A stretch of 64,000 bases of DNA from Luteibacter yeojuensis (lineage in GTDB: Bacteria; Pseudomonadota; Gammaproteobacteria; Xanthomonadales; Rhodanobacteraceae). The notes under the pieces are model-generated. The model was given only the letters and a program-made list of their open reading frames with translations. It did not search any database and was not told where the DNA came from. This document shows positions 41,087 through 59,901 of the stretch, piece after piece (the stretch's first letter is position 1; each line of letters opens with the position of its first letter). The DNA lies in NCBI RefSeq assembly GCF_000964085.1, contig NZ_JZRB01000029.1, forward strand, positions 36,397 to 100,396, read 5' to 3'. Both the position numbers and the translations under genes were made by a program.

Positions 41087-41197
41087 GCATGTTCCACGTT
41101 CAAGAGGGAGTCAAAACGCCTCGCTGCGTGGACGAACCCGCCAGCCGGGGCATAACATAACTGTCATCTTAAGCAATCAAGCCACGGTAGGCCTAGC

Positions 41198-41914: not shown

Positions 41915-41921
41915 ACGCCCC

Positions 41922-42650: not shown

Positions 42651-43402
42651 ACACCACACCGATGGAAACCCCGCAGGCGCCGCTGTGGCGCCGGTTGCTG
42701 ATCCGCGGCGGCAAGCGTTTCCTGCGCTGGAGCGGCGATTTCGAGGCGAAGCATTCGCTGGTGGCCACCACGCCCGTGCTCGACAACGGCACGTTCGACT
42801 GGGTGCCCCGCCTGGAAGCCGCATGGCCCGAGATCCGCGCCGAACTCGACCATATCCTCGAGCACCCCGAGGACATCCCGGCTTTCCATCAGATATCCCC
42901 CGACCAGAAGCGCATCTCCAAGGGCGATAACTGGAAAACCTTTGGTTTCTACGTCTACGGCAAGCGCGTGGACGAGAACTGCGCCGTGTGCCCCAGGACG
43001 GCCGCCGTACTCGATACGCTGCCCGGCATGCGCAGCGCGATGTTCTCGATCCTGAAGCCCGGGTACCACATCGCCCCCCACAAGGGGCCCACCCGGGCGG
43101 TCATCCGGGCCCACCTCGGCGTCATGGTGCCGAAAGACTGGCGTAACGTTTGGATCAGGGTCCACGACCAGTTCCTGCACTGGCACGAGGGCAAGGTCGT
43201 GCTATTCGACGACAGTTATGAGCACGAGGTTAAGAACGACACGGACGAGCTCCGGGCCGTGCTTTTCATCGATATCGACCGCCCCATGGACAAGCTCGGA
43301 ACCGCCTTTAACCGATTGATTTTCTGGCTTATCCAGGCATCGCCGTATGTGCGCCAGCCGCTGAAGAACATCCAGGCCTGGGGCCGTGCCAGGGGCCGGT
43401 GA
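42647..43402 (+). CDS. Aspartyl/asparaginyl β-hydroxylase-family Fe(II)/2OG dioxygenase, LpxO/OlsC-like lipid hydroxylase.
   Basis: 'SILKPGYHIAPHKGP' and a later His, matching the Asp β-hydroxylase His-x-Asp...His region. ATGA coupling to paralog 3 of the kinases. Confidence 0.6.
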   Translation: MNTTPMETPQAPLWRRLLIRGGKRFLRWSGDFEAKHSLVATTPVLDNGTFDWVPRLEAAWPEIRAELDHILEHPEDIPAFHQISPDQKRISKGDNWKTFGFYVYGKRVDENCAVCPRTAAVLDTLPGMRSAMFSILKPGYHIAPHKGPTRAVIRAHLGVMVPKDWRNVWIRVHDQFLHWHEGKVVLFDDSYEHEVKNDTDELRAVLFIDIDRPMDKLGTAFNRLIFWLIQASPYVRQPLKNIQAWGRARGR

Positions 43403-43591
43403 TTCGGCTTCCCCTAGGCAGCGGTTCACAAAAAAAATACAATTTTTGCCCTGAAAGACTTGCGAAACTCTGAGTAAATTCTTAGCATACGTCTAATTAG
43501 AGGACCGCTGGGTTTAGTAATGCCCACGTAACACCTCGGTCTTTTTCCGGATCACCGGCGAGACGTTCGCAGAGAAGCAAGCGAAAAGCCC

Positions 43592-45352: not shown

Positions 45353-46287
45353 CAACGGTCGCGCTCACGGGCGCCACCGGGTTCATCGGCGCGGCCCTTT
45401 GCGATGCCCTGGTGCAGGCGGGTTACCACGTCCGCGCGTTGTACCGTCCGCGCAATGGCCGGGTGATGCACAGCACGCCCGGCGTGAAATGGGTCGCGGG
45501 TGACCTCGGGGACGATGACGCGCTGGCCGCCCTCGTGCAGGATGCCGAGGTGGTGGTCCATTGCGCGGGCAGTGTCCGCGGGGCCACCCGGGACGCGTTC
45601 GACCGAGTGAACGAACAGGGCACGCTGCGCGTGGCGCAGGCCGCCGTGCGCGGTGGCGCGGCCCGGCGTTTCCTGCTCATCTCGTCGCTGGCCGCGCGCG
45701 AGCCGCAGTTGTCGGATTACTCGCGCAGCAAGCACCTCGGCGAACAGGCGCTGGCCGCGAACGCGGGCGCGATGCAGTGGGCGGCGATCCGCCCGCCTGC
45801 CGTCTACGGCCCCGGCGACAAGGAGATGCTGCCGCTGTTCGAGGGCATGGCCAAGGGCCTGGCGCCGATCCCCGGCGACGGCAAGGGCCGCTTCTCGATG
45901 ATCCACGTGGCGGACCTGGCCTCGGCGGTCTGCGCGTGGGTCGGCCAGCCCGGGGCAAGCGGCGCGATCTACGAGATCGACGACGGCCACCCGCGCGGGT
46001 ACGACTGGGACACGGTGCTCGCCACCGCGTCGGCCGTGTTGCGCGGCGGCGCGCCCATCCGCCGGCTCACCATCCCGGTGCCCGTGCTGCGCACCATCGC
46101 GGCGGTGAACCGCACCGCGGCCCGCGTGTTCGGCTACGCGCCCATGCTGACGCCGGGGAAGGTGCGCGAGGTGACCCACGCCGATTGGGTGGGCCACGAC
46201 AACAACATATTCATGCAAGCGACGGGGTGGCACCCCGTCGTCTCATTCGAACAAGGTCTAGCGGCATTGAGTGGAGTATCCCGGTGA
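45349..46287 (+). CDS. NAD-dependent epimerase/dehydratase (SDR) family protein, a CerR-like ketoreductase candidate.
   Basis: 'VALTGATGFIGAALCDAL' (Rossmann). 4-bp overlap with the FAAL. Confidence 0.7.
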   Translation: MTTVALTGATGFIGAALCDALVQAGYHVRALYRPRNGRVMHSTPGVKWVAGDLGDDDALAALVQDAEVVVHCAGSVRGATRDAFDRVNEQGTLRVAQAAVRGGAARRFLLISSLAAREPQLSDYSRSKHLGEQALAANAGAMQWAAIRPPAVYGPGDKEMLPLFEGMAKGLAPIPGDGKGRFSMIHVADLASAVCAWVGQPGASGAIYEIDDGHPRGYDWDTVLATASAVLRGGAPIRRLTIPVPVLRTIAAVNRTAARVFGYAPMLTPGKVREVTHADWVGHDNNIFMQATGWHPVVSFEQGLAALSGVSR

Positions 46288-46535
46288 ACCATCAGGACGT
46301 CGTGGCACAGCTCGTCGACATCGTCACCCCCATGGCCGAAGGGCGCGTGGCCAACATCACCGCGGACACCGGGCTCACCGGTGAGCTCGCGTTCGATTCG
46401 CTGAAGGTCATGGACCTGATGCTGGCGGTGGAAGACCATTTCGATATTTCCGTGCCGGTGAACGCGCTGGCCGATATCCGCACCGTGGGTGAGCTGGCCA
46501 CGCTTATCGAAACCGTGGCGGGCAAGCACGCATGA
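46284..46535 (+). CDS. Acyl carrier protein, GTG start.
   Basis: 'LAFDSLKVMDLM' carries the DSL phosphopantetheine site. It is an 83 aa protein coupled at both ends. Confidence 0.65.
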   Translation: MNHQDVVAQLVDIVTPMAEGRVANITADTGLTGELAFDSLKVMDLMLAVEDHFDISVPVNALADIRTVGELATLIETVAGKHA

Positions 46536-47716: not shown

Positions 47717-47744
47717 TAACCATGGTCCACGCCGCGATCCGACG

Positions 47745-49082
47745 ATGAAGCACTGGTTCTCCGACGGCGCGTTCCGCGCCATCGTGCGCAACGCGACTTA
47801 CCTGGGTTCGAGCAACGTCATTGGCGCGCTGCTCGGCCTGCTTGCGCTCGCGTGCGCGGGCCGGGCCATGACGCCCGAGCTGTTCGGCACCCTTGTGGTG
47901 GTGCAGGCCTACGCCAAGAGCGTCAGCGATTTCGTCAAGTTCCAGACCTGGCAGTTTGTCGTCCAGTTCGGCACCCCCGCCCTCGCCCACCGCGACCTCG
48001 GCCGCTTCCGCGACGTAGCCAGTTTCTCGTTCGGCCTGGACCTCGCCAGTGGCGTCATCGCCATGGTCGGCGGCATGGCCCTGCTGCCGCTGCTGGGCCA
48101 TGCGGTGGGCATCACGCCGCAGGATTTCTGGTGGGCGCTGGGCTACTGCACGCTCATCCCCACGATGACCGCGGCGACGCCCACCGGCATACTGCGCGCC
48201 ATCGACCGCTTCGACCTCATCGCCGTACAGCAGGGCATCACGCCGTTCCTGCGCGCCATCGGCAGCGTCATCGCCTACTACGGCCACCTCGGTTTCCCGG
48301 GTTTTATCGCCACGTGGTATGTCTCGAGCCTGGCGGGCGACGGCACGCTGTGGTGGTTCGCGGTGCGCGAACTGCGCCGCCAGGATATCCACCATGCGTT
48401 GCGCCCGGGCCTGTTCGGCGTGGCGCGCCGCATCAAGGGCGCGTGGGATTTCGTCTGGACCACCAACTTCGCGCACTCGATCTGGTCGGCGCGCAACGCG
48501 GGCACCAACGTGCTCGTGGGCATCGTGCTGGGCCCGGCCGCCGCGGGTGTGTTCAAGGTGGCGCTGACCTTCTTCGATGCCGCCGGCACGCCGGCCTCGC
48601 TGATGCAGAAAAGCTTCTACCCCGAGGTGCGCCGCCTCGACCCCACCACCACGCGCCCGTGGAAGCTCGGCCTGCGCTCGGCGGCGCTCGCCGGCGGCCT
48701 GGGCATCCTCGTCGCGTTGCTGGTCATCCTGGTGGGCAAGCCACTCATCGGCGGCGTGTTCGGCAAGCAATACCTCGAGGCGTACGACATCCTCCAGGTG
48801 ATGTCCGCCGCGCTGGTCGTCTCCATGGCCGGCTTCCCGCTCGAATCGCTGCTCTACATCGCCAGCCGCCAGCGTGCCGCGCTGGTGGCCCAGGCCCTCG
48901 CCGCCGTGGTGTACGTCGTGCTGCTGGTCGCCCTCGCCCACGCCATGGGCATCATGGGCGCCGCCATCGCGTACTTCGCGGGCCAGTGCCTCGAGGCCGG
49001 CTTCTCGCTCATACCCACGGTGGCCGCCTACCGGCGGCGCCACACGCTGTCGTACTACTCGCCCGGGGAGGCCCGCCCATGA
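47745..49082 (+). CDS. Polytopic membrane protein, Wzx/MurJ-like oligosaccharide or lipid flippase family (MOP superfamily).
   Basis: About 12 hydrophobic helices and 445 aa. ATG at 47745. Confidence 0.5.
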   Translation: MKHWFSDGAFRAIVRNATYLGSSNVIGALLGLLALACAGRAMTPELFGTLVVVQAYAKSVSDFVKFQTWQFVVQFGTPALAHRDLGRFRDVASFSFGLDLASGVIAMVGGMALLPLLGHAVGITPQDFWWALGYCTLIPTMTAATPTGILRAIDRFDLIAVQQGITPFLRAIGSVIAYYGHLGFPGFIATWYVSSLAGDGTLWWFAVRELRRQDIHHALRPGLFGVARRIKGAWDFVWTTNFAHSIWSARNAGTNVLVGIVLGPAAAGVFKVALTFFDAAGTPASLMQKSFYPEVRRLDPTTTRPWKLGLRSAALAGGLGILVALLVILVGKPLIGGVFGKQYLEAYDILQVMSAALVVSMAGFPLESLLYIASRQRAALVAQALAAVVYVVLLVALAHAMGIMGAAIAYFAGQCLEAGFSLIPTVAAYRRRHTLSYYSPGEARP

Positions 49083-49918
49083 ACGCGTACCAGGGCCTTC
49101 GCTGGCAACGGTTCCCGAAAGAAACGCTGCGCCGCCTGTTCGACGCCGTGGACACCGACGATGTGGTCGATGCCCACACCGCGCTGCCCGACCCCATCGT
49201 CCTGGCGTGCCCGCAGGAATGGATCGAGCGCTGCTACGCCCTGTGCCTGCAGTTCTGGGAAGACGGCTTCACCCGCGCCGAGCTGCTCCAGCTCGTGGAG
49301 AAACTGCTGCGCAACGAAGGCCTCAGCGCCGATGAGCGCCTGCAGTACAAGCACATCCGCGCCCGCTACAAGCACCTGCGCTTCGCGCAGCGCCTGTACG
49401 GCAAGCACCACCGGTCGGGCTTCGTGTTCGACCTCACCACGCGGGTGATGGGCCACCTGCAGGATGCGTTCCGCGGCGGCAACCGCGGCGGCGTGGTGCG
49501 CCAGGGCCTGAAGCTGAAGCTGCTGCTCTCGCGGCCGGTGTGGCGCATGGTGCGCCGCGGCCTCGTCAACACGGTGCTCGACGACGAGGCCGGCTTCGTC
49601 GCGTTCCAGCAGGCCGAGATGCGCCGGTTGCGCAAGGCCATGGTGCGCACCTCGTTCGCCGGCGACCAGTTCCACACCGTGCGCAAGATCGTCAGCATGC
49701 AGGTGTCGTACTACGACACGCTGCGCTCGTTCGGCCCGAACGAGCACGCGTTCCGCATGTCACGCTTCCTCGCGGCCATCAACGGCCTCATGGGCTACCG
49801 CCATGACGAGATGGTGGCCGACGACATGTCGGGGCGGCGCGACTACAACACGCCCACGCCGCTGGCCACGCAGACGCGGACGCGCATCGAAACCCTTATC
49901 GCGCACTACCCGCTCTAG
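49079..49918 (+). CDS. Hypothetical protein of 279 aa, the last gene of the lipid operon.
   Basis: ATGA overlap with the flippase stop. It is Arg-rich and helical, with no recognised motif. Confidence 0.45.
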   Translation: MNAYQGLRWQRFPKETLRRLFDAVDTDDVVDAHTALPDPIVLACPQEWIERCYALCLQFWEDGFTRAELLQLVEKLLRNEGLSADERLQYKHIRARYKHLRFAQRLYGKHHRSGFVFDLTTRVMGHLQDAFRGGNRGGVVRQGLKLKLLLSRPVWRMVRRGLVNTVLDDEAGFVAFQQAEMRRLRKAMVRTSFAGDQFHTVRKIVSMQVSYYDTLRSFGPNEHAFRMSRFLAAINGLMGYRHDEMVADDMSGRRDYNTPTPLATQTRTRIETLIAHYPL

Positions 49919-51231
49919 GGCTGCCAGCCGCCACCCAGGGCCAGGATGAGGTCCACGCTGGCGCCGAGGCGCCGGCGGCGCAGCTCGAAGTCCCCACGGC
50001 CTGCCGTAACCGCGGCATTGGCGGCATCGACCACGGTGGTGTAATCGGCCACGCCCTCGCGGTACTGGTTCTGCACGACGCGATCGGATTCGGCCGCGGC
50101 CGCCGCGGCTTTCGCTTGCAGCTCCGCGGCGCTTGCCAGGGTCGAGGTATCGACGAGGCCATCCTCCACTTCGCGGTAGGCGTCGAGCACCGTCTGCCGG
50201 TAATTGGCCACGGCTTCGTCGTATGCGGCGTTGGCGTGCTGCTCGTTGCCCTCGAGGCGGCCACCGGCGAACAGCGGTGCCTTCGCGTCCACGGTGCCGG
50301 TCGGGCCCCGGCGCACGCCGATGCCGGCCGCAAGGCTGATCGACGGCAGGGTCTGCGCCTTGGCGACGCCACGGCCCGCGCTGGCGGCGGCCATGCGCCG
50401 TTCGCTGGCCACCACGTCAGGGCGGCGTTCGAGCAGCGTGGCCGGCACGCCCGCGGGGATCTCGGGCACGGCCGTATCGAACGGCGCGGGGGCGATCGTA
50501 AATGACTCCGGTGGCTGGCCCAGCATCACGGCGATGGCATGCTCGAGCTTGGCGCGCGCGCTGCGCGCATCGGCCAGCTGCAGCTGCGCATTGCTCGCGC
50601 GCACCAGCGCGTCGGCCACGTTGGCGCGGGAGACCTGGCCCTGCGCGTACTGGTTCTGCGCCATCTCGTGCCACTTCAGGCCCGCCTCGGCGGCGTGCTC
50701 GAGCAGCGGCAGCGCCGCGTCCTCGGCCCGCAGCGCGAAGTAGCTCTGCACCACGCGCGCCTGCATCGACAGCGTGGCACCGGCGAGGTCCGCACTGCTT
50801 GCCTGCGCGAGCGCGCGATGGGCTTCGACATCGCGGCGGATGCGGCCCCACAGGTCGAGGTCCCAGCTCACGCCGACGCCGAAGTCGTTCTCGTTGCGGC
50901 GGCCGGATTTGAGCGAGCCCAGGCCCACCTCGGGGTACGCGGCGCCCTGCGCTTCCTTCACCAGCGCATCGGCCTCGCGCACGCGCGCGGCCGCGGCGGC
51001 AAGCGACGGGTTGTTCACGGCCACCTGGGCGACCAGGGCATCGAGTGCCGGGTCGTGGTAGATGGCCCACCACGTGCCCGCGGGTAGCGGCGTCGCGGTG
51101 GCCGCGGCCTGCGCTTCCTTGAACGCGGCGGGCGTCGCGACGCCCGGCCGCACATAGTCGGGGCCGACCGTGCAGGCGCCGAGCGCGACGACCGAGCCGG
51201 CCACCAGCCAGGGGCGGAGGAAGGTCTTCAT
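49915..51231 (-). CDS. RND efflux outer-membrane lipoprotein, NodT/OprM family.
   Basis: The lipobox 'VVALGAC' and OEP repeats. It overlaps the upstream pump gene by 4 bp. Confidence 0.75.
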   Translation of the reverse strand: MKTFLRPWLVAGSVVALGACTVGPDYVRPGVATPAAFKEAQAAATATPLPAGTWWAIYHDPALDALVAQVAVNNPSLAAAAARVREADALVKEAQGAAYPEVGLGSLKSGRRNENDFGVGVSWDLDLWGRIRRDVEAHRALAQASSADLAGATLSMQARVVQSYFALRAEDAALPLLEHAAEAGLKWHEMAQNQYAQGQVSRANVADALVRASNAQLQLADARSARAKLEHAIAVMLGQPPESFTIAPAPFDTAVPEIPAGVPATLLERRPDVVASERRMAAASAGRGVAKAQTLPSISLAAGIGVRRGPTGTVDAKAPLFAGGRLEGNEQHANAAYDEAVANYRQTVLDAYREVEDGLVDTSTLASAAELQAKAAAAAAESDRVVQNQYREGVADYTTVVDAANAAVTAGRGDFELRRRRLGASVDLILALGGGWQP

Positions 51232-54200
51232 GCGGGGCGGCGGGCGCCGGACTGCTGCAGCCATTGGCTTGTCCATCTGCTGAAACGATCAAGGTAGAGG
51301 TACACCACCGGCGTGGTGTAAAGGGTGAGGAGCTGGCTCACCACCAGGCCACCGCCCATGGCGATGCCCAGGGGCTGGTGCATCTCGGCGCCGTTGCCGC
51401 GCGAGACCGCGAGCGGCACGGCGGCCACCATCACCGCCAGCGTGGTCATCAGGATGGGCCGGAAGCGCAGGCGGCACGCTTCCTGGATGGCCTCCAGCGG
51501 TGCCAGGCGGCCGTCGCGGCTCGCCACCAGGGCGAAGTCCACCATCATGATGGCGTTCTTCATGACGATGCCGGTGAGCGCGAAGATGCCGACAAGGGCG
51601 ATCACGTCCAGGTCGGTGCCGAACAGCAGCAGCGCGAACACCGCGCCCACCGCCGCCGAAGGCAAGGTCGAGAGGATGGTCACCGGGTGCATGCAGCTCT
51701 CGTAGAGGATGCCGAGCACGATGAACAGCGTCAGGAAGGCGGCCACGATGAGCGCTGGCTCGCTGTCCGCCACCTGGCGCGCCGCGCCGGCCGAACCCTG
51801 GAAGCTGCCACGCACCGCGCTCGGCACCGCGAGCGACCCCACGGCACGTTCGATGGCCTGCGAGGCCCTGGCCAGCGAAACCCCGGGCGCACGGTCGAAC
51901 GACACGGTCGCGGCGACAGCCTGCCCGTAGTGCGCGATATCCAGCGGCGTGTCGAAGGCACGCACGCTGCCGACGGCGAGCAGCGGCACGCTGCCACCCC
52001 CGGCCGCGGGCACGCGCAGCGCGTCGAACGCCTGCGCCGAACGCGCCTGCCCGGCGGCGACACCCATCAGCACGGGCACCTGGTCGGCGGCCGTGAACAC
52101 GGTCGCGACGCGGCGGTCGGCGAAGGCGTCGTGCAGCACCCCGTCGATGCCGGCCACCGTGAGGCCGGCCAGCGCAGCGGCGTCACGGTCGATGTCGATG
52201 GAGGTGGCGGCACCCGTGGCGCCTGCGCCGCCATGCACGTTGCGCAGCTCGGGCAGGCGTGCCATGGCCTCGACGATGCGCGGCGCCCACTGGCGCAGCA
52301 ATGCCGCGGAATCAGCCTGGATGGTGTACTCGCTGGAGGCGCGGCTGCGGCGGCCACCCACGCGGATGTTCTGCACCGAGGTGACGGTGGCGACGCCCCC
52401 TGCCCCCCCGGCGAGTTTCTGGTTTAGGCGCGCGGCGACATCGTCGGCGCTGGCATCGCGCTCGCCGACCGGCTTCAGGGTGACGAATAACGAGCCCTCG
52501 CCCCCTTCGAGGTAGCCGCCCACGGCGCCCACGGCGGGGTCGGCGCGCACGGTGGCGACGAAGCGCGCGAAGCCTGCCTTCGCCACGTCGAAGGCGGCGC
52601 TGCCGCCCGCGTCGAAGTCACCCGTCAGCTCGCCGGTATCCTGGCGCGGGAAGAAGCCCTTCGGCACCACGACATAGAGCCACACGCTGAGCACGATGAC
52701 GCCCAGCAACGAAAGCATCGTGAGTGGCGCGTGGCGAAGGGCCCGCGCCAGCGAGCGCATGTAGGCCGCCTGCAGGCGCGCGAGTGTGTCGTTGACCCGG
52801 CGGAACACCAGGCCATGCGCGGGCGTGGCACGCGACGGGCGCAGCCACAGGGCGCAGGCCATGGGCACGACGGTGAGCGAGACCACCAGCGAGACGGCGA
52901 TGACGGTGGCGATGGTGACCGAGAATTCGCGGACGAACAGGCCCACGTACCCGCCCATGAACAGCAGCGGGATGAAGACGGCGATGAGCACCGCGCTCAT
53001 CGAGACGACCGTGAGCCCCACCTCGCCGGCGCCGATGCGCGCGGCATCCCGCGGCGGCACGCCCGCCTCGAGGTGGCGGGCGATGTTCTCGACCACCACG
53101 ACGGCATCATCGACGGCAAAGCCCACGGCGATGGTCAGCGCCATCAGCGAGAGGATATCGAGGCTGTAGCCCAGCGCCTGCATCACCACCATGGCGCCGA
53201 GCAGCGCGATGGGCGCGACGGCGCTGGCAATGAGCGCGGCGCGCCAGTCGCGCAGGAAAACCAGCATGACGACCACCACCAGCACCACGGCCAGGGCCAG
53301 CGTGTGCTCCGCGGAACGCAGCGAGGCCCGCACGGTGGTGGCACGGTCGACGATGACACCCACGTGCATGTCGCCCGGCAGCGACGCGCGCAGCGCGGGC
53401 AGGCGCTGCGTGACGCCGTCGATCACGGCGATGGTGTTCGCCCCCGGCTTGTGCCGCACCAGGGCCAGCACCGCCGGTTCGCCGTTGGCGACGCCGAGCG
53501 TGCGCGGGTCGCGCACATCGTCCGCCACGCTCGCGATATCGCCCAGGCGCACGCTGGCGCCACCGTGGTGGGCGACGACCAGGCCGCGGAAGGCCTGCGC
53601 CGAATCGAGCTGGCCGTTCATGGCCACCTGCAACGCGCGGCCACCGGCCTCGACCACGCCGGTGGGGGTATGCGTGACGGCACCGCCCACGGCGCGGCGC
53701 ACGTCGGCGAACGACACGCCGCGCTGGTCCATCGCCGCCGGGTCCAGGGCGATGCGGAACGCGGGTACCGAGCTGCCGACGAGTTCCACGTCGCCGACGC
53801 CGTCGACCTGGGCCAGCGCCTGCGTGAACGTCGTGGACGCCACCGCGTACATCTGCGCGGGCGTGGCCTGCCGCGACGTCAGCGACAGCACCAGCACCGG
53901 CGCGTCGGCCGAGCTCACTTCGCGGTAGGCCGGGCTGCCGGCCATGTCCGGCGGCAGGTCGCCGCGCGCGGCGTTGAGCGCCGCCTGCACGTCGCGTGCG
54001 GCACCCACGCTGCTGCGCGAGAGATCGAAGGCCAGGCGGATATCGGTCTGCCCCGCCGTGTTCACCGAGGTCATCTCGGTGAGCCCCGCGATGCGCCCCA
54101 GCGAGCGCTCGAGCGGGGTCGCCACGGCGGCCACCATCGTCGCGGGGCTCGCGCCAGGCAGCGACGCCGAGACCTTGATGGTCGGCACGTTCACTTCAGG

Positions 54201-54311
54201 CATCGAGGCGATGGGCAGCAGGCGCCACGCCACCGCACCGGCGATCACCAGGCCCAGGCACAGCAGCGTCGTCGCCACCGGCCGGTCGATGAACAGCCGC
54301 GAGAGGTTCAC
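51228..54311 (-). CDS. mdtC: RND multidrug efflux permease, MdtC-like.
   Basis: 'MNLSRLFIDRPVATTLL' and 1027 aa. Confidence 0.8.
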   Translation of the reverse strand: MNLSRLFIDRPVATTLLCLGLVIAGAVAWRLLPIASMPEVNVPTIKVSASLPGASPATMVAAVATPLERSLGRIAGLTEMTSVNTAGQTDIRLAFDLSRSSVGAARDVQAALNAARGDLPPDMAGSPAYREVSSADAPVLVLSLTSRQATPAQMYAVASTTFTQALAQVDGVGDVELVGSSVPAFRIALDPAAMDQRGVSFADVRRAVGGAVTHTPTGVVEAGGRALQVAMNGQLDSAQAFRGLVVAHHGGASVRLGDIASVADDVRDPRTLGVANGEPAVLALVRHKPGANTIAVIDGVTQRLPALRASLPGDMHVGVIVDRATTVRASLRSAEHTLALAVVLVVVVMLVFLRDWRAALIASAVAPIALLGAMVVMQALGYSLDILSLMALTIAVGFAVDDAVVVVENIARHLEAGVPPRDAARIGAGEVGLTVVSMSAVLIAVFIPLLFMGGYVGLFVREFSVTIATVIAVSLVVSLTVVPMACALWLRPSRATPAHGLVFRRVNDTLARLQAAYMRSLARALRHAPLTMLSLLGVIVLSVWLYVVVPKGFFPRQDTGELTGDFDAGGSAAFDVAKAGFARFVATVRADPAVGAVGGYLEGGEGSLFVTLKPVGERDASADDVAARLNQKLAGGAGGVATVTSVQNIRVGGRRSRASSEYTIQADSAALLRQWAPRIVEAMARLPELRNVHGGAGATGAATSIDIDRDAAALAGLTVAGIDGVLHDAFADRRVATVFTAADQVPVLMGVAAGQARSAQAFDALRVPAAGGGSVPLLAVGSVRAFDTPLDIAHYGQAVAATVSFDRAPGVSLARASQAIERAVGSLAVPSAVRGSFQGSAGAARQVADSEPALIVAAFLTLFIVLGILYESCMHPVTILSTLPSAAVGAVFALLLFGTDLDVIALVGIFALTGIVMKNAIMMVDFALVASRDGRLAPLEAIQEACRLRFRPILMTTLAVMVAAVPLAVSRGNGAEMHQPLGIAMGGGLVVSQLLTLYTTPVVYLYLDRFSRWTSQWLQQSGARRPA

Positions 54312-57300
54312 GGCGCGGCCCTGCCCTGGCGGCGCGCATGCAGCACGCGCTCGAACGCGAGGTAGATGACCGGCGTGGTGAACAGGGTCAGCAGCTGGCT
54401 CACCACCAGGCCCCAGAACACGCCCACGCCCAGCGGGTGGCGCAGCTCGGCGCCCATGCCGCCGCCCAGCATGAGCGGCAGCGCGCCGACCATGGCCGCG
54501 AGCGTGGTCATGATGATGGGCCGGAAGCGCAGCAGGCTGGCCTGCACGATGGCGTCGCGCGGGCTGAGCCCCTGGCGGCGCTGCGCATCGATGGCGAAAT
54601 CGATGAGCATGATCGCGTTCTTCTGCACGATGCCGATAAGCAGGATCACGCCGATGAGGGAGATCACGTCGAGCTCGAAGCCGCCGATCAGCAGCGCCAG
54701 CAGCGCGCCGATGGCCGCCGGCGGCAGCGTGGAGAGGATGGTCAGCGGGTGGATGAAGCTCTCGTAGAGCACGCCCAGCACGATGTAGACGGTGATAAGC
54801 GTCGCCAGGATGAGCCAGGCCTGGCCCTGCCGTGACGCCGCGAAGGCCTCGGCCGCGCCCTGCCAGCGCAACTGCACGTTATCAGGCAGCTTCATGCCGC
54901 GCCGCGCGCCGTCGACCACCTTCATGGCACCGCCCAGCGACGTGCCACCAGCGAGATCGAACGACACCATGGCCGACGGCACCTGGTCGAGGCGCGTGAC
55001 GATGAGCGGCGCCGTGCGCTCGCTGACACTGGCGATGGACGTGAGCGGCACGAGCGTGGCCGCGCCGTCGTCGGCCTTGCCCGGCACGTACACGCCGTTC
55101 ATGGCCGACGCGGCGTCGCCAGCCGCGGGCTGCGCCTCGAGGACCACCCGGCGGGGATGGGGCAGCGACAGCAACGAGCCGACCTGGCGCTGGCCGAAGG
55201 CGTCGTACAACGCATCGCCCACGGCCGCCGCGGTGATGCCGTAGCGGCTGGCCAGGTCCTGGTCCACGTCGACGTAAAGCTGCAGGCCGCGATCCTGCTG
55301 GTCGGTGGCGACATGGCCGAGCGCGCCTTCGCGGCCCAGCCGCTCGACCACCCTGGGCACCGCGGCGGCCAGCTGCGCGGGATCGGCGCTTTCCAGCGAA
55401 AAGACATACTGGCCGCGGCTCACGCGGTCGTCCAGGGTCAGCTCGGGCACGGGTTGCAGGTGGAGGCTGATGCCCCCTACCTTCCGCGCCGCTTCGTCGA
55501 GGCGCCGGATAACCGCGCCGGCGCGGTCGCGCTCGCTGAGCGGCTTCAGGTGCACCAGCAGTTCACCGGTGTTGGGTGCCGCCGCGCCGCCCGTGCCGCC
55601 GATGAACGAGGCGACGCCCGCCACGGCGGGATCCTTGCGGATGGCCTCGGCCAGCGCACGCTGGCGCTGGCCCATGGCCTGGAACGACACGCCCGGCGCC
55701 GCCTGCGCGATGCCCTGCAGGTCGCCGCTATCCTGCGCGGGGAACAGGCCGCGCGGCATCACCACGAACAACACGATGGCGAGCACGGTCATGCCGCCGA
55801 CGAGCAGCAAGGTGGCCGGCTGCCGCGCGAGCACCCACGCCAGGCCGCGCTCGTAGCGCGCCAGGATGCCGTCCACCCACGTGCGGCGGCCGGGCACGGC
55901 ATGGCCCTCGGCGTTGGCCAGCGGCTTGCGCAGCAGGCGCGCGCACATCATCGGCGTGAGCGTCAGCGACACCACGCCGGAAATGAGGATGGCCACGGCC
56001 AGGGTCACCGCGAACTCGCGGAACAGCCGGCCCACCAGGCCACCCATGAACAGCAGCGGGATCAGCACCGCGACGAGCGAGACGGTGAGCGACACGATGG
56101 TGAACGCGATCTGCCGCGAGCCCGCGAGCGCCGCGGCCAGCGGTGTTTCGCCCGCTTCGATATAGCGCGAGATGTTCTCGATCATGACGATGGCGTCGTC
56201 GACCATGAAGCCCGTGGCCACGATCAGCGCCATGAGGGTGAGGTTGTTGATCGAGAAACCGGCCAGGTACATCACCGCGAACGTGCCGATGAGCGACAAT
56301 GGCACCACCACGCCCGGGATGATCGTGGCCGCGCCACCGCCCAGGAACGCGTAGATGACCAGCACCACGAGCACGACGGCGAACAGCAGTTCCACCTGCA
56401 CGTCGCGGACGGCCGCGCGGACGGTTTCGGTGCGATCGGTGACCACGGCCACGTCGACGGCCGCGGGCAGCGTCGTCTTCAACTGCGGCAGCACGCGCTG
56501 GATGCGGTCGACCACGTCGACGACGTTGGCGCCCGGCTGGCGGCGGATGCGCAGCACGATGGCCGGGGCGCCATCGGTCCACGCACCCACGCGCGCATCT
56601 TCCGCGCCATCGCTGACGCGCGCGACATCGCCCAGGCGCACCACGGCGCCCTCGTGGTGGCCGACCACGAGGGCGCGGAACCCCTCCACCGTGTCTACCG
56701 GGTGGTTCAGCGCGATAGCCGAGGAGCGCTCCGGGCCCTCGAGCGTGCCCTTGGCCTGGTTCGAGTTGGCGGCGCGGATGGCTTCGCGCACGTCGCCCAG
56801 CGACATGTCGTGCGAGCGCAGCCGGATCGGGTCGGCCTGCACCACCACGGCGGGCTGCTGGCCGCCGTCGATGCCGACCAGGCCGACGCCGCCCACCTGC
56901 GAGAGCTTTGGCACAAGGCGCGTTTCCGCCAGTTCGCGCACGGTGCGCAGCGGCAGCGTGGGCGAGGTGAGCGCGAGCGTCATCACCGGCGCGTCGGCGG
57001 GGTTCACCTTGCGGTAGATGGGCGGCTGCGCCACGTCCGGCGGCAGCAGCGGCGTCGCCGCGTTCAGGGCCGCCTGCACTTCCTGTTCGGCCACGTCCAG
57101 CGGCAAGTCGAGGTTGAAGCGCAGCGTGATGCTCGATGCGCCCGGCGCGCTCGTCGATGCCATCTGGCCAAGGCCCGGCATCTGGCCGAGCTGGCGTTCC
57201 AGCGGCGCCGTGATCGATGTGGCCACCACCTGGGGGCTGGCGCCCGGGTATGTCGTGGCCACTTCGATCGTGGGGAAGTCGACCTCGGGCAGTGCCGAGA

Positions 57301-57400
57301 CGGACAGGAACCGGTAGCCGAACAGGCCCACGAGCAGCACGGCGAGGGCCAGCAGCGACGTCGCCACCGGCCGGTCGATGAAGAGGCGCGACGGGTTCAC
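54308..57400 (-). CDS. mdtB: RND multidrug efflux permease, MdtB-like, GTG start.
   Basis: 'VNPSRLFIDRPVATSLL'. The GTGA overlap with the mdtA stop argues against the ORF-track Met 15 codons upstream. Confidence 0.75.
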   Translation of the reverse strand: MNPSRLFIDRPVATSLLALAVLLVGLFGYRFLSVSALPEVDFPTIEVATTYPGASPQVVATSITAPLERQLGQMPGLGQMASTSAPGASSITLRFNLDLPLDVAEQEVQAALNAATPLLPPDVAQPPIYRKVNPADAPVMTLALTSPTLPLRTVRELAETRLVPKLSQVGGVGLVGIDGGQQPAVVVQADPIRLRSHDMSLGDVREAIRAANSNQAKGTLEGPERSSAIALNHPVDTVEGFRALVVGHHEGAVVRLGDVARVSDGAEDARVGAWTDGAPAIVLRIRRQPGANVVDVVDRIQRVLPQLKTTLPAAVDVAVVTDRTETVRAAVRDVQVELLFAVVLVVLVIYAFLGGGAATIIPGVVVPLSLIGTFAVMYLAGFSINNLTLMALIVATGFMVDDAIVMIENISRYIEAGETPLAAALAGSRQIAFTIVSLTVSLVAVLIPLLFMGGLVGRLFREFAVTLAVAILISGVVSLTLTPMMCARLLRKPLANAEGHAVPGRRTWVDGILARYERGLAWVLARQPATLLLVGGMTVLAIVLFVVMPRGLFPAQDSGDLQGIAQAAPGVSFQAMGQRQRALAEAIRKDPAVAGVASFIGGTGGAAAPNTGELLVHLKPLSERDRAGAVIRRLDEAARKVGGISLHLQPVPELTLDDRVSRGQYVFSLESADPAQLAAAVPRVVERLGREGALGHVATDQQDRGLQLYVDVDQDLASRYGITAAAVGDALYDAFGQRQVGSLLSLPHPRRVVLEAQPAAGDAASAMNGVYVPGKADDGAATLVPLTSIASVSERTAPLIVTRLDQVPSAMVSFDLAGGTSLGGAMKVVDGARRGMKLPDNVQLRWQGAAEAFAASRQGQAWLILATLITVYIVLGVLYESFIHPLTILSTLPPAAIGALLALLIGGFELDVISLIGVILLIGIVQKNAIMLIDFAIDAQRRQGLSPRDAIVQASLLRFRPIIMTTLAAMVGALPLMLGGGMGAELRHPLGVGVFWGLVVSQLLTLFTTPVIYLAFERVLHARRQGRAAP

Positions 57401-58599
57401 GGGTGGCCGGCGGAGGCGGCCGTGGCGGGGGCGTCGGCGGGGCACGCGATGGCCGCGGCGGGCGCCGGGGCCGCTTCGGCCGCGGCCGTGGCGTTTACCG
57501 GGGTGCCGTTACGCAGGCGGTCCGCGCCTTCGACGACGACCTGCGCACCAGCGGCGAGGCCGGCGCGGATGACGGTGGCCCCGGTATCGCCCGGGCCGGT
57601 TTCGACGGCCACGGTCTTCACGGTCTTGTCGGGCTGCACCACGTAGACAAACGCGCCCTGGGCACCCTGCTGGATGGCCGCGGTGGGCACGAGGACCGCC
57701 GATGGCACGGCCTCCACCACCAGCTTCGCGGTGACGAACTGGTTTGCCAGCAACGTGTTATCGGTGTTTGCGAAACCGGCTTCGAGGCGCACCGTGCCCG
57801 TGGCGGGGTCGACCTGGTTATTGGCGGCGAGCAGCCGGCCGGTGGCCAACGGGCGCGTGGTGTCGTCGCCGTACGCGGCCACCGGGATGCAGGCGCCCTC
57901 GCGCAGGCGGGCCAGTACGTGCGGGGCGTCCTGGACCGATACGGCGAAGGTGACCTTGCTGGGCTGCGACTGCGTGATGGTGGCGATGCCCTGTGCATCA
58001 CCCGGGCCCACGAGGTTGCCCGGGTCGACGCGGCGCAGGCCCACCGTGCCGCTGATGGGCGCGGTGATGCGCGCGCCCGACACCTGCAGGTTGGCCGTGC
58101 CGATGCGGCCCTGCGCGGATTTCACCTCGCCGGCGTACTGCCGCACCAATGCCTGCTGGTCGGCGACGCGCTGGCGCGAGATGGAATCCTGCGTGAGCAG
58201 CGCCTGGTAATGCTTCAAGGTCTCCTGCGCATTGGCCAGCTGGGCCTGGCTGCGGGCCAGGTCGCCGTTGGCCAGTTCCAGCTGCGCCTGCGACGAGCGC
58301 GGGTCGAGTTCGGCCAGCACGTCGCCCTTCTTCACCTGCTGGCCACCCGTGAACGCCACGCGGGTGAGCTCGCCATCCACGCGGCTGCGCACCACCACGC
58401 TGTTCGACGGCACGACGGTGCCCGGCTGCGAGCGCGTCACGTCGAACCGGCCCTCGCGGGCGGCGGCGGTGGTGACGGGCACGGCCTGGGCATCGGCCGC
58501 GCCGCTGGACGCCGAGCGGTGCGTGAGCCACCACGCCAGCGCCGCCACGATGACGACGATGATGACGATGACGCCGGCGCGCGGGGATGCTTTGCTCAT
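57397..58599 (-). CDS. mdtA: RND efflux membrane-fusion protein, MdtA-like.
   Basis: An N-terminal anchor, an HlyD-family coiled-coil and a β-barrel. Confidence 0.75.
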   Translation of the reverse strand: MSKASPRAGVIVIIVVIVAALAWWLTHRSASSGAADAQAVPVTTAAAREGRFDVTRSQPGTVVPSNSVVVRSRVDGELTRVAFTGGQQVKKGDVLAELDPRSSQAQLELANGDLARSQAQLANAQETLKHYQALLTQDSISRQRVADQQALVRQYAGEVKSAQGRIGTANLQVSGARITAPISGTVGLRRVDPGNLVGPGDAQGIATITQSQPSKVTFAVSVQDAPHVLARLREGACIPVAAYGDDTTRPLATGRLLAANNQVDPATGTVRLEAGFANTDNTLLANQFVTAKLVVEAVPSAVLVPTAAIQQGAQGAFVYVVQPDKTVKTVAVETGPGDTGATVIRAGLAAGAQVVVEGADRLRNGTPVNATAAAEAAPAPAAAIACPADAPATAASAGHP

Positions 58600-59800
58600 G
58601 GCAGGGTCTTCTCGTAGACGCGGTAGCGCTTGTAGTCACGGCCGCCGATGGTCTCGACGATGTTCCGCATGCCTTCGTTATCCTCGAGGATCCACGACAG
58701 CTCCACCTGTTCCACGCCGCGCGCGACAAGGTGGTGGCGCACGGCGTCGATGACGAGGAAGGCCAGGCCCGGGCCGAGCGGCGTGTTGTGGAAGGCGCGG
58801 CGGACGCCCATGAGCGGCACGCGCGAGCTCTTGGGGAAACGCTTCTTCAGGCCCCACAGCAGCTTCACCCAGTTGAAGGGCAGCAGCTTGCCGTCGAAAT
58901 CCCGGATCACCTCGTTGACGTTGGGCAGCGCGGCGATGAACGCGGCCGGCTTGCCATCCACCTCGGCGATCTGGATGAGTTCCGGCGCGATGAGCAGCTT
59001 CAGGCTGTGCCCGAGGTCCTTGAACTCGGCCTCGGTGAACGGCACGAAGCCCCAGTTATCGGCCCACGCATCGTTGAAGATCTCGCGCAGCGTGGCCAGC
59101 TCCTCGTCGTAGCGCGAGGCATCCAGCGGGCGCACGCGCACCGGCTGCTTCGAGCTGCGCAGCAGGCGGTCCATGACCTTCGGCGCCGGGAAATCCGGCG
59201 CGATCATGTAGGCCAGCATGTCCTTGGCCTTGGTGAAGCCGTGGCGCTCGATGTGCTTGCCGTAGTACGGCTTGGCGTGGCCCATCATGAACACCGGCGG
59301 CGTGTCGAAGCCATCGACCAGCAGGCCTACCTCATCGTTGATGGAAAGGCTAAGCGGGCCGCGCACGCGCTTGATGCCTTCCTGGCGCAGCCAGCCCTCG
59401 GCCGCTTCGAACAGGGCACCGAAGGTCTCGGCGTTGTCTTCGGCATCGAGCATGCCGAAGAAACCGGTGGCGTCCTCGTAGCGCTCGAGGTGGAGGTAAT
59501 CGATCTGCGCGCTGATGCGCCCCACCGGCGTGTCGCCGCGGTAGGCCACCCAGCCCATCCACCGCGCGTGCTGGAACCAGGGGTTCGTCTTGGCGCCGAG
59601 GTGCAGCCGGCGCTCGAGCAGCAGCGGCGAGACCCATGCCGGGTCGGAACCGAGGATGGCGCCGGGGACTTTCAGGAACGGCCCCAGGCCCGACTTCTTC
59701 GTGACCGGGGTGATACGCAATGGGGCGGGTGTGTTCAAGGCCAGGGTTCCGTGGATAAAGCGGACGACGCAATGACACACAAGTGTAATCAGCGCCGCGC
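58596..59800 (-). CDS. FemAB/GNAT-like acyltransferase (Acetyltransf_6-like) with an uncertain N-terminus. It is the first gene of the mdtABC-OMF operon.
   Basis: '...PLMGVRRAFHNTPLGPGLAFLVIDAVRHH...ELSWILEDNEGM' looks like a GNAT core. ATGA overlap with mdtA. The ORF-track start at 59966 would overlap the divergent gene at 59902. Confidence 0.45.
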
Positions 59801-59901
59801 CGAATTGGTACACCCATGGGTATAGGAAACTCGGGAACCAACGACCACGCCACGCGTTCTCAGCTCCATCGCCACGGAATGCTTCGGCCAGGGAAGGGGT
59901 T

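What the first reader, a model, noticed from the sequence alone, without database searches (positions are those of the whole stretch)
58596..59800. FemAB/GNAT-like acyltransferase translated as the leader gene of an mdtABC-OMF RND efflux operon
Its stop overlaps the mdtA start (ATGA), so an N-acyltransferase-like enzyme is made in step with a tripartite exporter. This arrangement is seen for N-acyl-amino-acid and lipid-like signal or antibiotic exporters, and it is also the enzyme class of bacterial ceramide synthase. The N-terminal boundary is unclear because the long ORF-track start overlaps the divergent gene at 59902.
Basis: inference. Interest (0 to 1): 0.5.

Follow-up and report, generated by a model that had tools for sequence, protein, structure and literature searches.

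The report
Ceramide synthase gene fused to efflux pump
The acyltransferase is the bacterial ceramide synthase of a complete sphingolipid gene cluster, and it is made together with a three-part envelope-spanning pump that sits where other bacteria keep their sphingolipid transporter, so the pump is a testable candidate for a second route that carries these lipids to the cell surface.

Summary
A minus-strand gene ends at 58596, and its TGA overlaps the ATG of mdtA (ATGA). All four junctions of the operon (acyltransferase, mdtA, mdtB, mdtC, NodT-type outer-membrane factor) are 4-nt overlaps. The true start is most likely TTG 59738 (380 aa), not 59800 or 59966.

The protein has a tandem-GNAT fold and belongs to the bacterial ceramide synthase (bCerS, Caulobacter CC_1154) family. 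The other four ceramide genes lie in the same window: acyl-ACP synthetase, CerR, ACP and Spt at 43592-47716. They converge on the pump operon.

In 80 related genome loci:
- 48 carry Spt, CerR or the synthetase nearby.
- 50 carry LptF/LptG paralogues, the sphingolipid transporter reported for Caulobacter in 2026.
- 5 carry an MdtABC-type pump.
- None carries both.

In betaproteobacterial loci the pump occupies exactly the slot that LptF2G2 fills elsewhere. Luteibacter, Rhodanobacter, Fulvimonas and one Burkholderia share the window's direct bCerS-mdtA adjacency.

Best reading (inferred, about 0.6): the pump exports the cluster's ceramide-type lipid in place of LptF2G2. No paper in the searchable library links an RND pump to bacterial sphingolipids. 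I rate it a new variant of a known kind.

The parts
58596..59738 (-). bCerS-family tandem-GNAT N-acyltransferase (bacterial ceramide synthase homologue), 380 aa. First gene of the operon. Its stop overlaps the mdtA start (ATGA).
   Evidence: homologues 379-390 aa. (AF2 pLDDT 95.7). (tandem-GNAT fold). (synteny with spt/cerR/acs, MobA-like and LptFG genes). (the Caulobacter bcerS 3' primer matches 58602-58621 at 19/20 nt).
57397..58599 (-). MdtA/MuxA-type periplasmic adaptor (membrane fusion protein), 400 aa, with an N-terminal membrane anchor.
   Evidence: NF008589, 308 bits, below the 391 cut-off; TIGR01730 passes. (a subfamily at >=55% identity in Rhodanobacteraceae and one Burkholderia).
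54308..57400 (-). MdtB/MuxB-type RND permease, 1032 aa. GTG start overlaps the mdtA stop (GTGA).
   Evidence: (55% identity to E. coli MdtB). (the TM4 DD pair and the TM10 K are conserved).
51228..54311 (-). MdtC-type RND permease, 1027 aa. GTGA overlap with mdtB.
   Evidence: (47% identity to E. coli MdtC, 41% to the window's MdtB)..
49915..51231 (-). NodT-family outer-membrane factor lipoprotein. ATG overlaps the mdtC stop (ATGA). Lipobox LGAC.
   Evidence: TIGR01845, 308.8 bits > 210..
49079..49918 (+). orf279: a conserved all-helical protein of unknown function. ATGA-coupled to the Wzx-like gene. Its stop overlaps the OMF stop (CTAG).
   Evidence: (370 homologues, including Sphingobium and Sodalis). 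(always directly after the Wzx-like gene). (confident model, no significant PDB match).
47745..49082 (+). Wzx/MOP-type flippase homologue (Polysacc_synt), the counterpart of Caulobacter CC_1166. Candidate inner-membrane flippase.
   Evidence: Text S1 of PMC11324152.
46532..47716 (+). Serine palmitoyltransferase (Spt).
   Evidence: NF047599 equivalog, 614 bits > 500 cut-off..
46284..46520 (+). Dedicated acyl carrier protein (AcpR-like). GTGA overlap with cerR.
45349..46287 (+). CerR-like NAD(P)-dependent epimerase/dehydrogenase-family reductase.
43592..45352 (+). Fatty acyl-AMP ligase / acyl-ACP synthetase (AasR-like).
   Evidence: NF006624, 752 bits > 600..
42647..43402 (+). OlsC/LpxO-like lipid acyl 2-hydroxylase (Asp_Arg_Hydrox).
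41922..42650 (+). P-loop dTMP-kinase-like paralogue Kin3 (function unknown).
41198..41914 (+). P-loop dTMP-kinase-like paralogue Kin2.
40361..41086 (-). P-loop dTMP-kinase-like paralogue Kin1. Its orthologue sits directly upstream of bCerS in Burkholderia sp. 22PA0106 and Fulvimonas.
59739..59901 (.). Intergenic region between the bCerS start and the divergent orf227. Presumed promoter region of the operon.
   Evidence: no sigma-70 consensus match and no terminator. (no Rfam family).

Best explanation
The gene at 58596-59738 (minus strand) encodes the bacterial ceramide synthase (bCerS) of a complete sphingolipid locus spanning about 40361-59738. That locus also holds Spt, a dedicated ACP, its acyl-ACP synthetase, CerR, an OlsC/LpxO-like hydroxylase, a Wzx-like flippase, three P-loop kinase-like paralogues and orf279.

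bCerS is the first cistron of a five-gene operon, bCerS-mdtA-mdtB-mdtC-omf, in which every junction is a 4-nt start/stop overlap. The enzyme and an MdtB/MdtC-type tripartite RND pump are therefore transcribed together and very probably translated in step.

Proposed mechanism (inferred):
1. In the cytoplasm, Spt condenses serine with acyl-ACP and bCerS N-acylates the long-chain base.
2. The Wzx-like protein flips the lipid to the periplasmic leaflet of the inner membrane.
3. The MdtABC-OMF pump picks the lipid up there, as RND pumps do with their substrates, and delivers it through the outer-membrane channel to the outer membrane or cell surface.

In this model the pump does the job that the LptB-LptF2-LptG2 ABC transporter does in Caulobacter.

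What is shown: gene identities, operon architecture, conservation of the linkage, and the mutually exclusive and positionally equivalent placement of LptF2G2 and MdtABC-OMF in related loci. What is inferred: the pump's substrate and its destination.
For: Identity as bCerS:
- The fold is tandem GNAT.
- Of 80 genome loci with 50-68% identical homologues, 48 carry Spt, CerR or the synthetase within 10 kb. 50 carry LptF/LptG paralogues. 51 of the 86 loci clustered (85 fetched loci plus the window) carry a MobA-like gene (the CC_1153 type) directly downstream.
- This is the published layout of Caulobacter CC_1152-1168 and of N. eutropha Neut_1100-1106, where Neut_1100 is the CC_1154 orthologue (PMC11324152 S2 Table). 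The same gene order appears in loci L071 and L076.
- The 3' primer used to clone Caulobacter bcerS matches the 3' end of the window gene at 19 of 20 nt, in frame: VYEKAL versus VYEKTL.
- The window holds the other four ceramide genes, and Spt passes the NCBIfam equivalog cut-off.

Operon: ATGA, GTGA, GTGA and ATGA overlaps.

Linkage to the pump:
- The same bCerS-to-MdtA adjacency occurs in L. aegosomaticola, Rhodanobacter sp. L36, a Rhodanobacter MAG, a Fulvimonas MAG and Burkholderia sp. 22PA0106.
- In betaproteobacterial MAGs (L008, L010, L011, L019, L089) the order is Spt-ACP-CerR-ACS, then divergently bCerS-NTPtransferase-(NTPtransferase)-MdtA-B-C-OMF-Metallophos-Tam41. This is the exact slot held by LptF-LptG in L078, L047, L030 and Nitrosomonas.
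- No RND-linked locus has LptFG within 10 kb or anywhere in the 64-kb window, and no LptFG locus has an Mdt-type pump.
- Sodalis sp. C49 has the same Wzx-orf279, Spt-cluster, bCerS and kinase-like gene set but with LptF/LptG beside it.

The pump looks functional: the proton-relay residues are conserved.

Literature: sphingolipid transport was called unknown in 2024 (PMC11087976, PMC11324152). LptF2G2 was proposed in April 2026 for Caulobacter (bioRxiv 10.64898/2026.04.12.717747). That preprint has no occurrence of 'RND' or 'efflux'.
Against: - There are no expression data and no lipid data. The substrate is inferred from gene context only.
- All RND-linked bCerS genes fall in one clade of the bCerS tree. 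The exclusivity with LptFG may therefore reflect only one or two evolutionary events, not many independent ones.
- Three members of that clade show neither transporter in the available flank: Methylotenera L003, L007 and L009.
- MdtA homologues of similar identity (50-51%) occur in unlinked housekeeping contexts (L090, L091). The betaproteobacterial linked pumps cluster with those.
- I could not check whether these genomes carry a second LptFG pair elsewhere.
- To my knowledge, a two-chain membrane lipid is not an established substrate of tripartite RND pumps.
- An internal promoter within bCerS cannot be excluded.
Confidence: 0.6

Rival explanations
1. The pump is an ordinary MdtABC/MuxABC-type multidrug or envelope-stress efflux pump. 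It shares an operon with bCerS only for co-regulation, for example because outer-membrane lipid remodelling and efflux are both switched on under envelope stress. It does not transport the sphingolipid.
For: - The subunits are 55% and 47% identical to E. coli MdtB and MdtC.
- Equally similar pumps occur without any sphingolipid genes (L090, L091).
- In L. aegosomaticola an OmpR-type regulator and a histidine kinase lie divergent from bCerS. This recalls BaeSR control of mdtABC in E. coli (gene order; the regulatory link is from my own knowledge).
Against: - Co-regulation alone does not explain why the pump takes the exact position of LptF2G2 inside betaproteobacterial sphingolipid loci, flanked on both sides by head-group genes.
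- It does not explain why RND-linked loci always lack LptFG.
- It does not explain why bCerS and the pump appear together in a Burkholderia whose pump groups with Rhodanobacteraceae.
Confidence: 0.2
2. The pump handles a pathway product, but not for building the outer membrane. It would be a relief valve for toxic free long-chain bases (3-ketosphinganine, sphinganine), or it would secrete a ceramide-derived molecule into the medium or into vesicles as a surfactant, signal or antimicrobial.
For: - The tight coupling is to bCerS specifically, not to the head-group genes.
- RND pumps typically expel amphiphiles to the outside.
- The window's locus lacks the ceramide-phosphoglycerate head-group genes found in most loci, so the product may be unusual.
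Against: - The positional replacement of LptF2G2, a transporter implicated in delivery to the outer membrane, argues for an equivalent role.
- Betaproteobacterial RND loci do keep head-group genes: NTP transferases, Metallophos and Tam41.
Confidence: 0.15
3. The acyltransferase does not act on sphingoid bases here. It makes another N-acyl amine, such as an N-acyl amino acid, that the pump exports.
For: - Neither Pfam nor NCBIfam has a model that names the protein.
- In Burkholderia sp. 22PA0106 no Spt is seen in the 8 kb upstream that could be read.
Against: - The protein is 63-68% identical to homologues that sit divergent to Spt-ACP-CerR-ACS.
- The complete ceramide gene set is in the window and converges on this operon.
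- The same layout occurs in Rhodanobacter sp. L36 and Fulvimonas.
- No hit at E <= 0.01 to any other Pfam acyltransferase family, which would include the OlsB- and FemAB-type families.
Confidence: 0.03

Closest known systems
Caulobacter crescentus sphingolipid locus (CC_1152-CC_1168 / ccna_01210-01226), with bCerS (CC_1154) next to lptG2-lptF2
   Same: - The same five ceramide genes: AasR-type synthetase, CerR, AcpR, Spt and bCerS.
- A Wzx-type putative flippase (CC_1166-like).
- bCerS lies beside genes for an envelope lipid transporter (PMC11324152; bioRxiv 10.64898/2026.04.12.717747).
   Different: - The transporter next to bCerS is a tripartite MdtABC-OMF RND pump, not LptF2/LptG2.
- The ceramide-phosphoglycerate genes are not in the window: the CC_1153, 1159, 1160 and 1161 types (MobA-like, CDP-OH transferase, DAGK-type kinase, Tam41-like).
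- In their place there are three P-loop kinase-like paralogues, an OlsC/LpxO-like hydroxylase and orf279.
MdtABC-TolC of E. coli / MuxABC-OpmB of Pseudomonas (heteromeric RND multidrug pumps)
   Same: - Adaptor plus two paralogous RND permeases in B-then-C order.
- 55% and 47% identity to E. coli MdtB and MdtC.
- Conserved proton-relay residues.
- Its own NodT-type OMF, as in MuxABC-OpmB (the OpmB comparison is from my own knowledge).
   Different: - All three subunits score below the NCBIfam equivalog cut-offs.
- The operon is led by and overlaps a lipid-biosynthesis gene, and is embedded in a sphingolipid locus.
- There is no mdtD or baeSR downstream (compare).
Dedicated envelope-lipid exporters: HpnN (hopanoids), MmpL3 (trehalose monomycolate), DevBCA-HgdD (heterocyst glycolipids). 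Comparison made from my own knowledge.
   Same: An RND-family or tripartite exporter encoded with the biosynthetic genes of a structural envelope lipid, and proposed to move that lipid outward from the inner membrane.
   Different: - HpnN and MmpL3 are single RND proteins without an adaptor/OMF channel.
- DevBCA-HgdD is ABC-driven.
- A hydrophobe/amphiphile-efflux-type heteromeric MdtBC pump for a sphingolipid has not been described in the papers I could search.
Tandem-GNAT N-acyltransferases of known structure (glucosamine N-acetyltransferase 5kf1, MAB_4324 7q3a, MshD 1ozp, CBG 2wpw)
   Same: A two-GNAT-domain fold. Foldseek E 6e-15 to 2e-13, TM 0.57-0.63.
   Different: - Only 12-16% sequence identity.
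- No sequence-level PDB hit.
- These enzymes use acetyl-CoA on sugars or thiols, whereas bCerS uses long acyl chains on a sphingoid base (PMC11087976).

Membership tests
Bacterial ceramide synthase (bCerS; CC_1154/CCNA_01212 family) | Full-length sequence homology to the experimentally characterised Caulobacter bCerS | tested here: inconclusive
Two indirect links exist. First, the gene-specific part of the published bcerS reverse primer matches window 58602-58621 at 19/20 nt, in frame at the C-terminus. Second, homologues in Nitrosomonas loci have the gene order of Neut_1100-1106, and Neut_1100 is the published CC_1154 orthologue (41% identity, E 5e-105).
Bacterial ceramide synthase (bCerS; CC_1154/CCNA_01212 family) | Genomic association with spt, cerR, the dedicated ACP and its synthetase | tested here: met
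   All four genes are in the window at 43592-47716. Of 80 related genome loci, 48 carry at least one of Spt, CerR or ACS within 10 kb, and 29 carry all three.
Bacterial ceramide synthase (bCerS; CC_1154/CCNA_01212 family) | GNAT-superfamily acyl-CoA N-acyltransferase fold, soluble, with no transmembrane segment | tested here: met
   AF2 pLDDT 95.7 and a tandem-GNAT fold. A subthreshold Acetyltransf_1 hit. No long hydrophobic segment is visible in the sequence.
Bacterial ceramide synthase (bCerS; CC_1154/CCNA_01212 family) | N-acylation of 3-ketosphinganine or sphinganine | not testable with these tools
   Needs an enzyme assay or mutant lipidomics.
MdtABC / MuxABC-OpmB heteromeric RND pump | Adaptor followed by two paralogous RND permeases (B-type, then C-type) | tested here: met
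   Best NCBIfam hits are MdtA/MuxA, MdtB/MuxB and MdtC respectively. In the NJ tree each permease falls with its E. coli namesake. Identities are 55% and 47% to the E. coli subunits and 41% between the two window paralogues.
MdtABC / MuxABC-OpmB heteromeric RND pump | Scores above the curated equivalog cut-offs (NF008589, NF007798, NF007905) | tested here: not met
   308.2 < 391, 1320.8 < 1584 and 1117.8 < 1774. It belongs to the wider family but is not an equivalog by NCBI's thresholds.
MdtABC / MuxABC-OpmB heteromeric RND pump | Proton-relay residues (TM4 Asp-Asp, TM10 Lys) intact | tested here: met
   VDDA and (Q/M)KN motifs are present in both subunits.
MdtABC / MuxABC-OpmB heteromeric RND pump | Multidrug efflux activity | not testable with these tools
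   Needs MIC or efflux assays.
FemAB/FemX aminoacyl-tRNA-dependent peptidyltransferases | Match to the FemAB family profile and close structural similarity to FemX | tested here: not met
   No FemAB Pfam hit at E <= 0.01. FemX structures align only at TM 0.39-0.42, ranked below more than 30 tandem-GNAT acetyltransferase chains.
LptB2-LptF2-LptG2 sphingolipid transporter locus type | LptF/LptG paralogues encoded in the sphingolipid locus | tested here: not met
   tblastn with 12 LptF/G-like queries finds nothing in the 64-kb window or in any RND-linked locus. It finds them in 50 of 80 other loci.

The most novel reading that the evidence does not exclude
MdtABC-OMF pumps of this type are dedicated sphingolipid exporters. 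[quoted passage not shown] It would be a second, mechanistically unrelated solution to bacterial sphingolipid trafficking. It would also be a 'multidrug-type' RND pump whose native substrate is a membrane lipid.
Probability: 0.45. Interest if true: 0.8.

Novelty: new variant of a known kind. Interest (0 to 1): 0.62.

Why it matters
[quoted passage not shown] As of April 2026 it has a single candidate answer, LptF2G2 with LptB in Caulobacter.

This locus, and its relatives in cultured Luteibacter and Rhodanobacter strains, offers a second candidate of a different machine class. The genetic prediction is clean: the pump should be dispensable only when spt is inactive, and its loss should trap ceramide in the inner membrane.

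It would also give a physiological substrate to a branch of the MdtABC/MuxABC pumps, whose native roles are poorly defined. It extends predicted sphingolipid production to Rhodanobacteraceae, which are common soil and rhizosphere bacteria. I found no paper in the held library reporting sphingolipids in Luteibacter, Rhodanobacter or Dyella.

Tried and rejected
- **Database names for the protein.** Pfam, NCBIfam and PDB sequence searches gave nothing usable: a subthreshold Acetyltransf_1 hit, no NCBIfam family, and a chance EF-hand hit. The source annotation 'dATP pyrophosphohydrolase' on some homologues is not supported by the GNAT fold.
- **The long ORF.** The 456-aa ORF starting at 59966 was rejected on homologue lengths.
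- **The upstream neighbour.** The minus-strand ORF 60006-60560 was rejected as junk-like. The plus-strand orf227 looks more like a real gene, but neither is conserved in related loci.
- **Genome scan.** The first scan with a 64-sequence alignment failed for lack of a conserved stretch. It worked with 18 sequences.
- **Promoter, terminator and Rfam scans.** Nothing was found around the 5' end.
- **The original Nat Chem Biol bCerS paper.** PMC8891067 is not held, so I could not make a full-length comparison with CCNA_01212.
- **Independent recruitment of the pump.** I considered that the pump had been recruited many times independently. The bCerS tree shows a single clade instead, so I do not claim this.
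- **orf279.** The model is confident but has no significant structural match. The best meaningful hit is a CHAD-domain protein at TM 0.41, E 0.5.
Full report
**The observation**

On the minus strand an ORF ends with TGA at 58596-58598, and the ATG of the next gene is at 58597-58599 ('ctgccATGAgc'). The downstream genes are:
- an MdtA/MuxA-type adaptor, 57397-58599
- an MdtB/MuxB-type RND permease
- an MdtC-type RND permease
- a NodT-type outer-membrane factor

Reading the junctions directly shows that all are 4-nt overlaps:
- mdtA/mdtB, GTGA at 57397-57400
- mdtB/mdtC, GTGA at 54308-54311
- mdtC/omf, ATGA at 51228-51231

The 456-aa ORF that reaches 59966 is not the gene. More than 100 close homologues are 379-390 aa and align from 'LNTPAPLRITPV'. 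This places the start at TTG 59738 (380 aa). It leaves 163 bp before the divergent orf227 at 59902.

**What the protein is**

Curated libraries do not name it:
- Pfam gives only a subthreshold Acetyltransf_1 hit (19.2 bits against a 20.7 cut-off).
- NCBIfam gives nothing.
- There is no sequence relative in the PDB.

The family is nevertheless large. There are 6,582 representatives of 50%-identity clusters at E <= 1e-3.

An AlphaFold model built on 64 sequences is very confident (pLDDT 95.7, pTM 0.92). It is a tandem-GNAT fold. The best matches are tandem-GNAT N-acetyltransferases such as 5kf1, 7q3a, 2wpw and MshD (TM 0.57-0.63). FemX aligns only at TM about 0.41.

**Identification as bacterial ceramide synthase (bCerS)**

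*Synteny elsewhere.* A Methylotenera homologue (65% identical) lies divergent to an AMP-ligase, an epimerase-family reductase, an ACP and an alpha-oxoamine synthase.

*The same genes are in the window.* A tblastn of those proteins against the window found all of them on the plus strand at 43592-47716. There:
- Spt passes the NCBIfam serine palmitoyltransferase equivalog cut-off (614 bits against 500).
- The ligase passes the fatty acyl-AMP ligase model (752 bits against 600).

*Related loci.* A scan of one genome per species returned 80 loci with 50-68% identical homologues. Among these:
- 48 carry Spt, CerR or the synthetase within 10 kb, and 29 carry all three.
- 50 carry LptF/LptG paralogues.
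- 75 carry one or the other.

Clustering all neighbouring ORFs over the 85 loci fetched by then plus the window, and annotating the largest clusters, gave a MobA-like nucleotidyltransferase directly downstream in 51 loci. It also gave LptF_LptG, Tam41-like, DAGK-type kinase, CDP-alcohol phosphatidyltransferase, a metallophosphoesterase and an MsbA-like ABC protein.

*Match to the published loci.* This is the published content of the Caulobacter locus CC_1152-CC_1168. CC_1153 is MobA-like, CC_1155/1156 are LptG2/F2, CC_1160 is the ceramide kinase, CC_1161 is Tam41-like and CC_1166 is Wzx-like (Text S1 of PMC11324152).

The order bCerS, MobA-like, LptF, LptG, transferase, kinase, Tam41 in loci L071 and L076 equals Neut_1100-1106 of N. 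eutropha. There, Neut_1100 is the listed orthologue of CC_1154 (41% identity, E 5e-105; S2D Table).

*A short direct link.* The gene-specific part of the reverse primer used to clone Caulobacter bcerS (EK1200/EK1313, supplement of PMC11087976) matches window 58602-58621 at 19 of 20 nt. No match occurred in 100 shuffles. The primer encodes the C-terminus VYEKAL, against VYEKTL in the window protein.

I could not obtain the full CCNA_01212 sequence, so full-length homology is not shown directly.

**The locus as a whole**

The window's sphingolipid locus runs from about 40361 to 59738.

Minus strand, left end: Kin1.

Plus strand, in order:
- Kin2
- Kin3
- an OlsC/LpxO-like hydroxylase
- a 190-bp gap
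- acyl-ACP synthetase
- CerR
- ACP
- Spt
- a Wzx-like flippase
- orf279

Several of these plus-strand junctions are also 4-nt overlaps.

This operon converges on omf-mdtC-mdtB-mdtA-bCerS. The two terminal stop codons overlap in a CTAG at 49915-49918.

The window lacks both the ceramide-phosphoglycerate head-group genes and any LptF/LptG homologue. The first 24 kb hold unrelated genes.

**Is the link between bCerS and the pump conserved?**

The same direct adjacency, with the Wzx-orf279-Spt operon converging on it where the flank allows, is seen in:
- L. aegosomaticola, again with 4-nt overlaps
- the isolate Rhodanobacter sp. L36
- a Rhodanobacter MAG
- a Fulvimonas MAG
- Burkholderia sp. 22PA0106, where a Kin1 orthologue precedes bCerS

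Twenty contig lengths are shared between the top-120 homologue lists of bCerS and MdtA. This suggests many more co-occurrences in metagenomes.

From the pump's side, MdtA homologues above about 55% identity are all from these taxa. Below that comes a plateau of generic MdtA/MuxA proteins at about 50%. Of four plateau or near-plateau proteins examined:
- one (a Burkholderiales MAG, L089) lies inside a sphingolipid locus
- one (Fulvimonas) matches the window's layout
- two (L090, L091) are in unrelated housekeeping contexts

**Positional replacement of LptF2G2**

The common architecture, seen in L078, L047 and L030, is:

Spt-(ACP)-CerR-ACS, then divergently bCerS-NTPt1-(NTPt2)-LptF-LptG-(Metallophos)-CDP-OH-transferase-kinase-Tam41.

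In L008 and L089 it is:

Spt-ACP-CerR-ACS, then divergently bCerS-NTPt1-(NTPt2)-MdtA-MdtB-MdtC-OMF-(Metallophos)-Tam41.

The four-gene pump therefore occupies the slot of the two Lpt genes, with sphingolipid genes on both sides. Across all loci, none has both transporter types.

A second comparison comes from Sodalis sp. C49. It has the Rhodanobacteraceae-type accessory set (Wzx-orf279, a Kin homologue, the Spt cluster and bCerS) but with LptF/LptG beside it.

Two caveats apply:
- In a neighbour-joining tree, all RND-linked bCerS proteins form one clade. That clade also holds three loci with neither transporter in view. The exclusivity may therefore rest on one or two events.
- In the permease tree, the Rhodanobacteraceae-plus-Burkholderia pumps form their own clade. 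The betaproteobacterial linked pumps group with unlinked ones. That is compatible with either two recruitments or later exchange.

These are rough distance trees.

**Mechanism**

*Shown:*
- the identities of the genes
- the overlap-coupled operon
- conserved proton-relay residues in both permeases
- a lipobox on the OMF and a membrane anchor on MdtA
- the comparative pattern described above

*From the literature:*
- Spt and bCerS act in the cytoplasm.
- CerR is periplasmic in Caulobacter.
- The lipids end up in the outer membrane.
- Their transport was unknown until LptF2G2 with LptB was implicated in 2026 (PMC11087976; PMC11324152; bioRxiv 10.64898/2026.04.12.717747).

*Inferred:* after N-acylation by bCerS and flipping by the Wzx-like protein (or by the MsbA-like ABC protein in the betaproteobacterial loci), the MdtABC-OMF pump takes the lipid from the periplasmic leaflet and moves it to the outer membrane or the surface.

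Rivals:
- The pump is merely co-regulated.
- It acts as a relief valve or secretion route for long-chain bases or a ceramide derivative.
- The enzyme makes a non-sphingolipid product. This is least likely.

**Comparison with what is known, and novelty**

The enzyme is a new member of a known family. The pathway is known.

What I could not find described is an RND pump as part of a bacterial sphingolipid locus. Full-text searches returned nothing relevant. These combined sphingolipid or ceramide terms with RND, efflux or transporter terms. The 2026 transport preprint contains no occurrence of 'RND' or 'efflux'.

The library is incomplete, because papers in subscription journals are mostly missing.

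I rate the finding a new variant of a known kind, with interest 0.62. The open question it touches is recognised and recent. The prediction can be tested directly in cultured strains. All the functional evidence, however, is contextual.

Noticed in passing
window 40361-41086 (-), 41198-41914 (+), 41922-42650 (+): There are three paralogous P-loop proteins of about 240 aa with only subthreshold dTMP-kinase hits. The three-paralogue set recurs next to Wzx-orf279 in Sphingobium cloacae and next to bCerS in Fulvimonas. Single homologues occur in Burkholderia sp. 22PA0106, Methylotenera and Sodalis loci. They may be an uncharacterised family of lipid or head-group kinases tied to sphingolipid loci.
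   Followed up: partly
window 49079-49918 (+): orf279 always follows the Wzx-like flippase gene with a 4-nt overlap. It is found in Luteibacter, Rhodanobacter, Sodalis and Sphingobium. It is a small family (370 homologues), all-helical, and confidently modelled (pLDDT 92.6), but has no significant PDB match. The best meaningful hit is a CHAD-domain protein at TM 0.41. Its function is unknown.
   Followed up: partly
window 49915-49918: The stop codons of the two convergent operons (orf279 TAG on the plus strand, omf TAG on the minus strand) overlap in the palindrome CTAG. This leaves no intergenic space for terminators, so convergent transcription must collide or read through.
   Followed up: no
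window 42647-43402 (+): An Asp/Arg beta-hydroxylase-family protein is closest to the ornithine-lipid 2-hydroxylase OlsC and to LpxO (both below cut-off). This suggests that the ceramide carries a 2-hydroxy acyl chain.
   Followed up: partly
window 25508-30983 (+): A second, unrelated RND system lies here: OEP, HlyD-type adaptor and ACR_tran permease in outer-membrane-protein-first order. Its permease is 24-26% identical to the Mdt permeases. It is probably a heavy-metal-type efflux system.
   Followed up: no
L086 7727-9861 (Luteibacter aegosomaticola): In the sister species an OmpR-family response regulator and a histidine kinase lie divergent from bCerS. In the window that position holds the unconserved orf227 (59902-60585). 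The upstream regulatory neighbourhood is therefore not conserved, even within the genus.
   Followed up: no
proteins P0017, P0282, P0402: A genome labelled 'Bacillus sp. NP157' carries bCerS, MdtA and orf279 at 72-81% identity to this window. The organism label is almost certainly wrong, and the genome is Rhodanobacteraceae-like.
   Followed up: no
proteins P0122 (784 aa), P0147 (630 aa), P0217 (940 aa): Some representatives of the bCerS family are fused to additional N- or C-terminal regions. P0122 has two matched stretches, which may be a tandem duplication. I did not examine them.
   Followed up: no
The bCerS family has no Pfam or NCBIfam model despite thousands of members. It is annotated variously as hypothetical protein, N-acetyltransferase or 'dATP pyrophosphohydrolase'.
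   Followed up: partly
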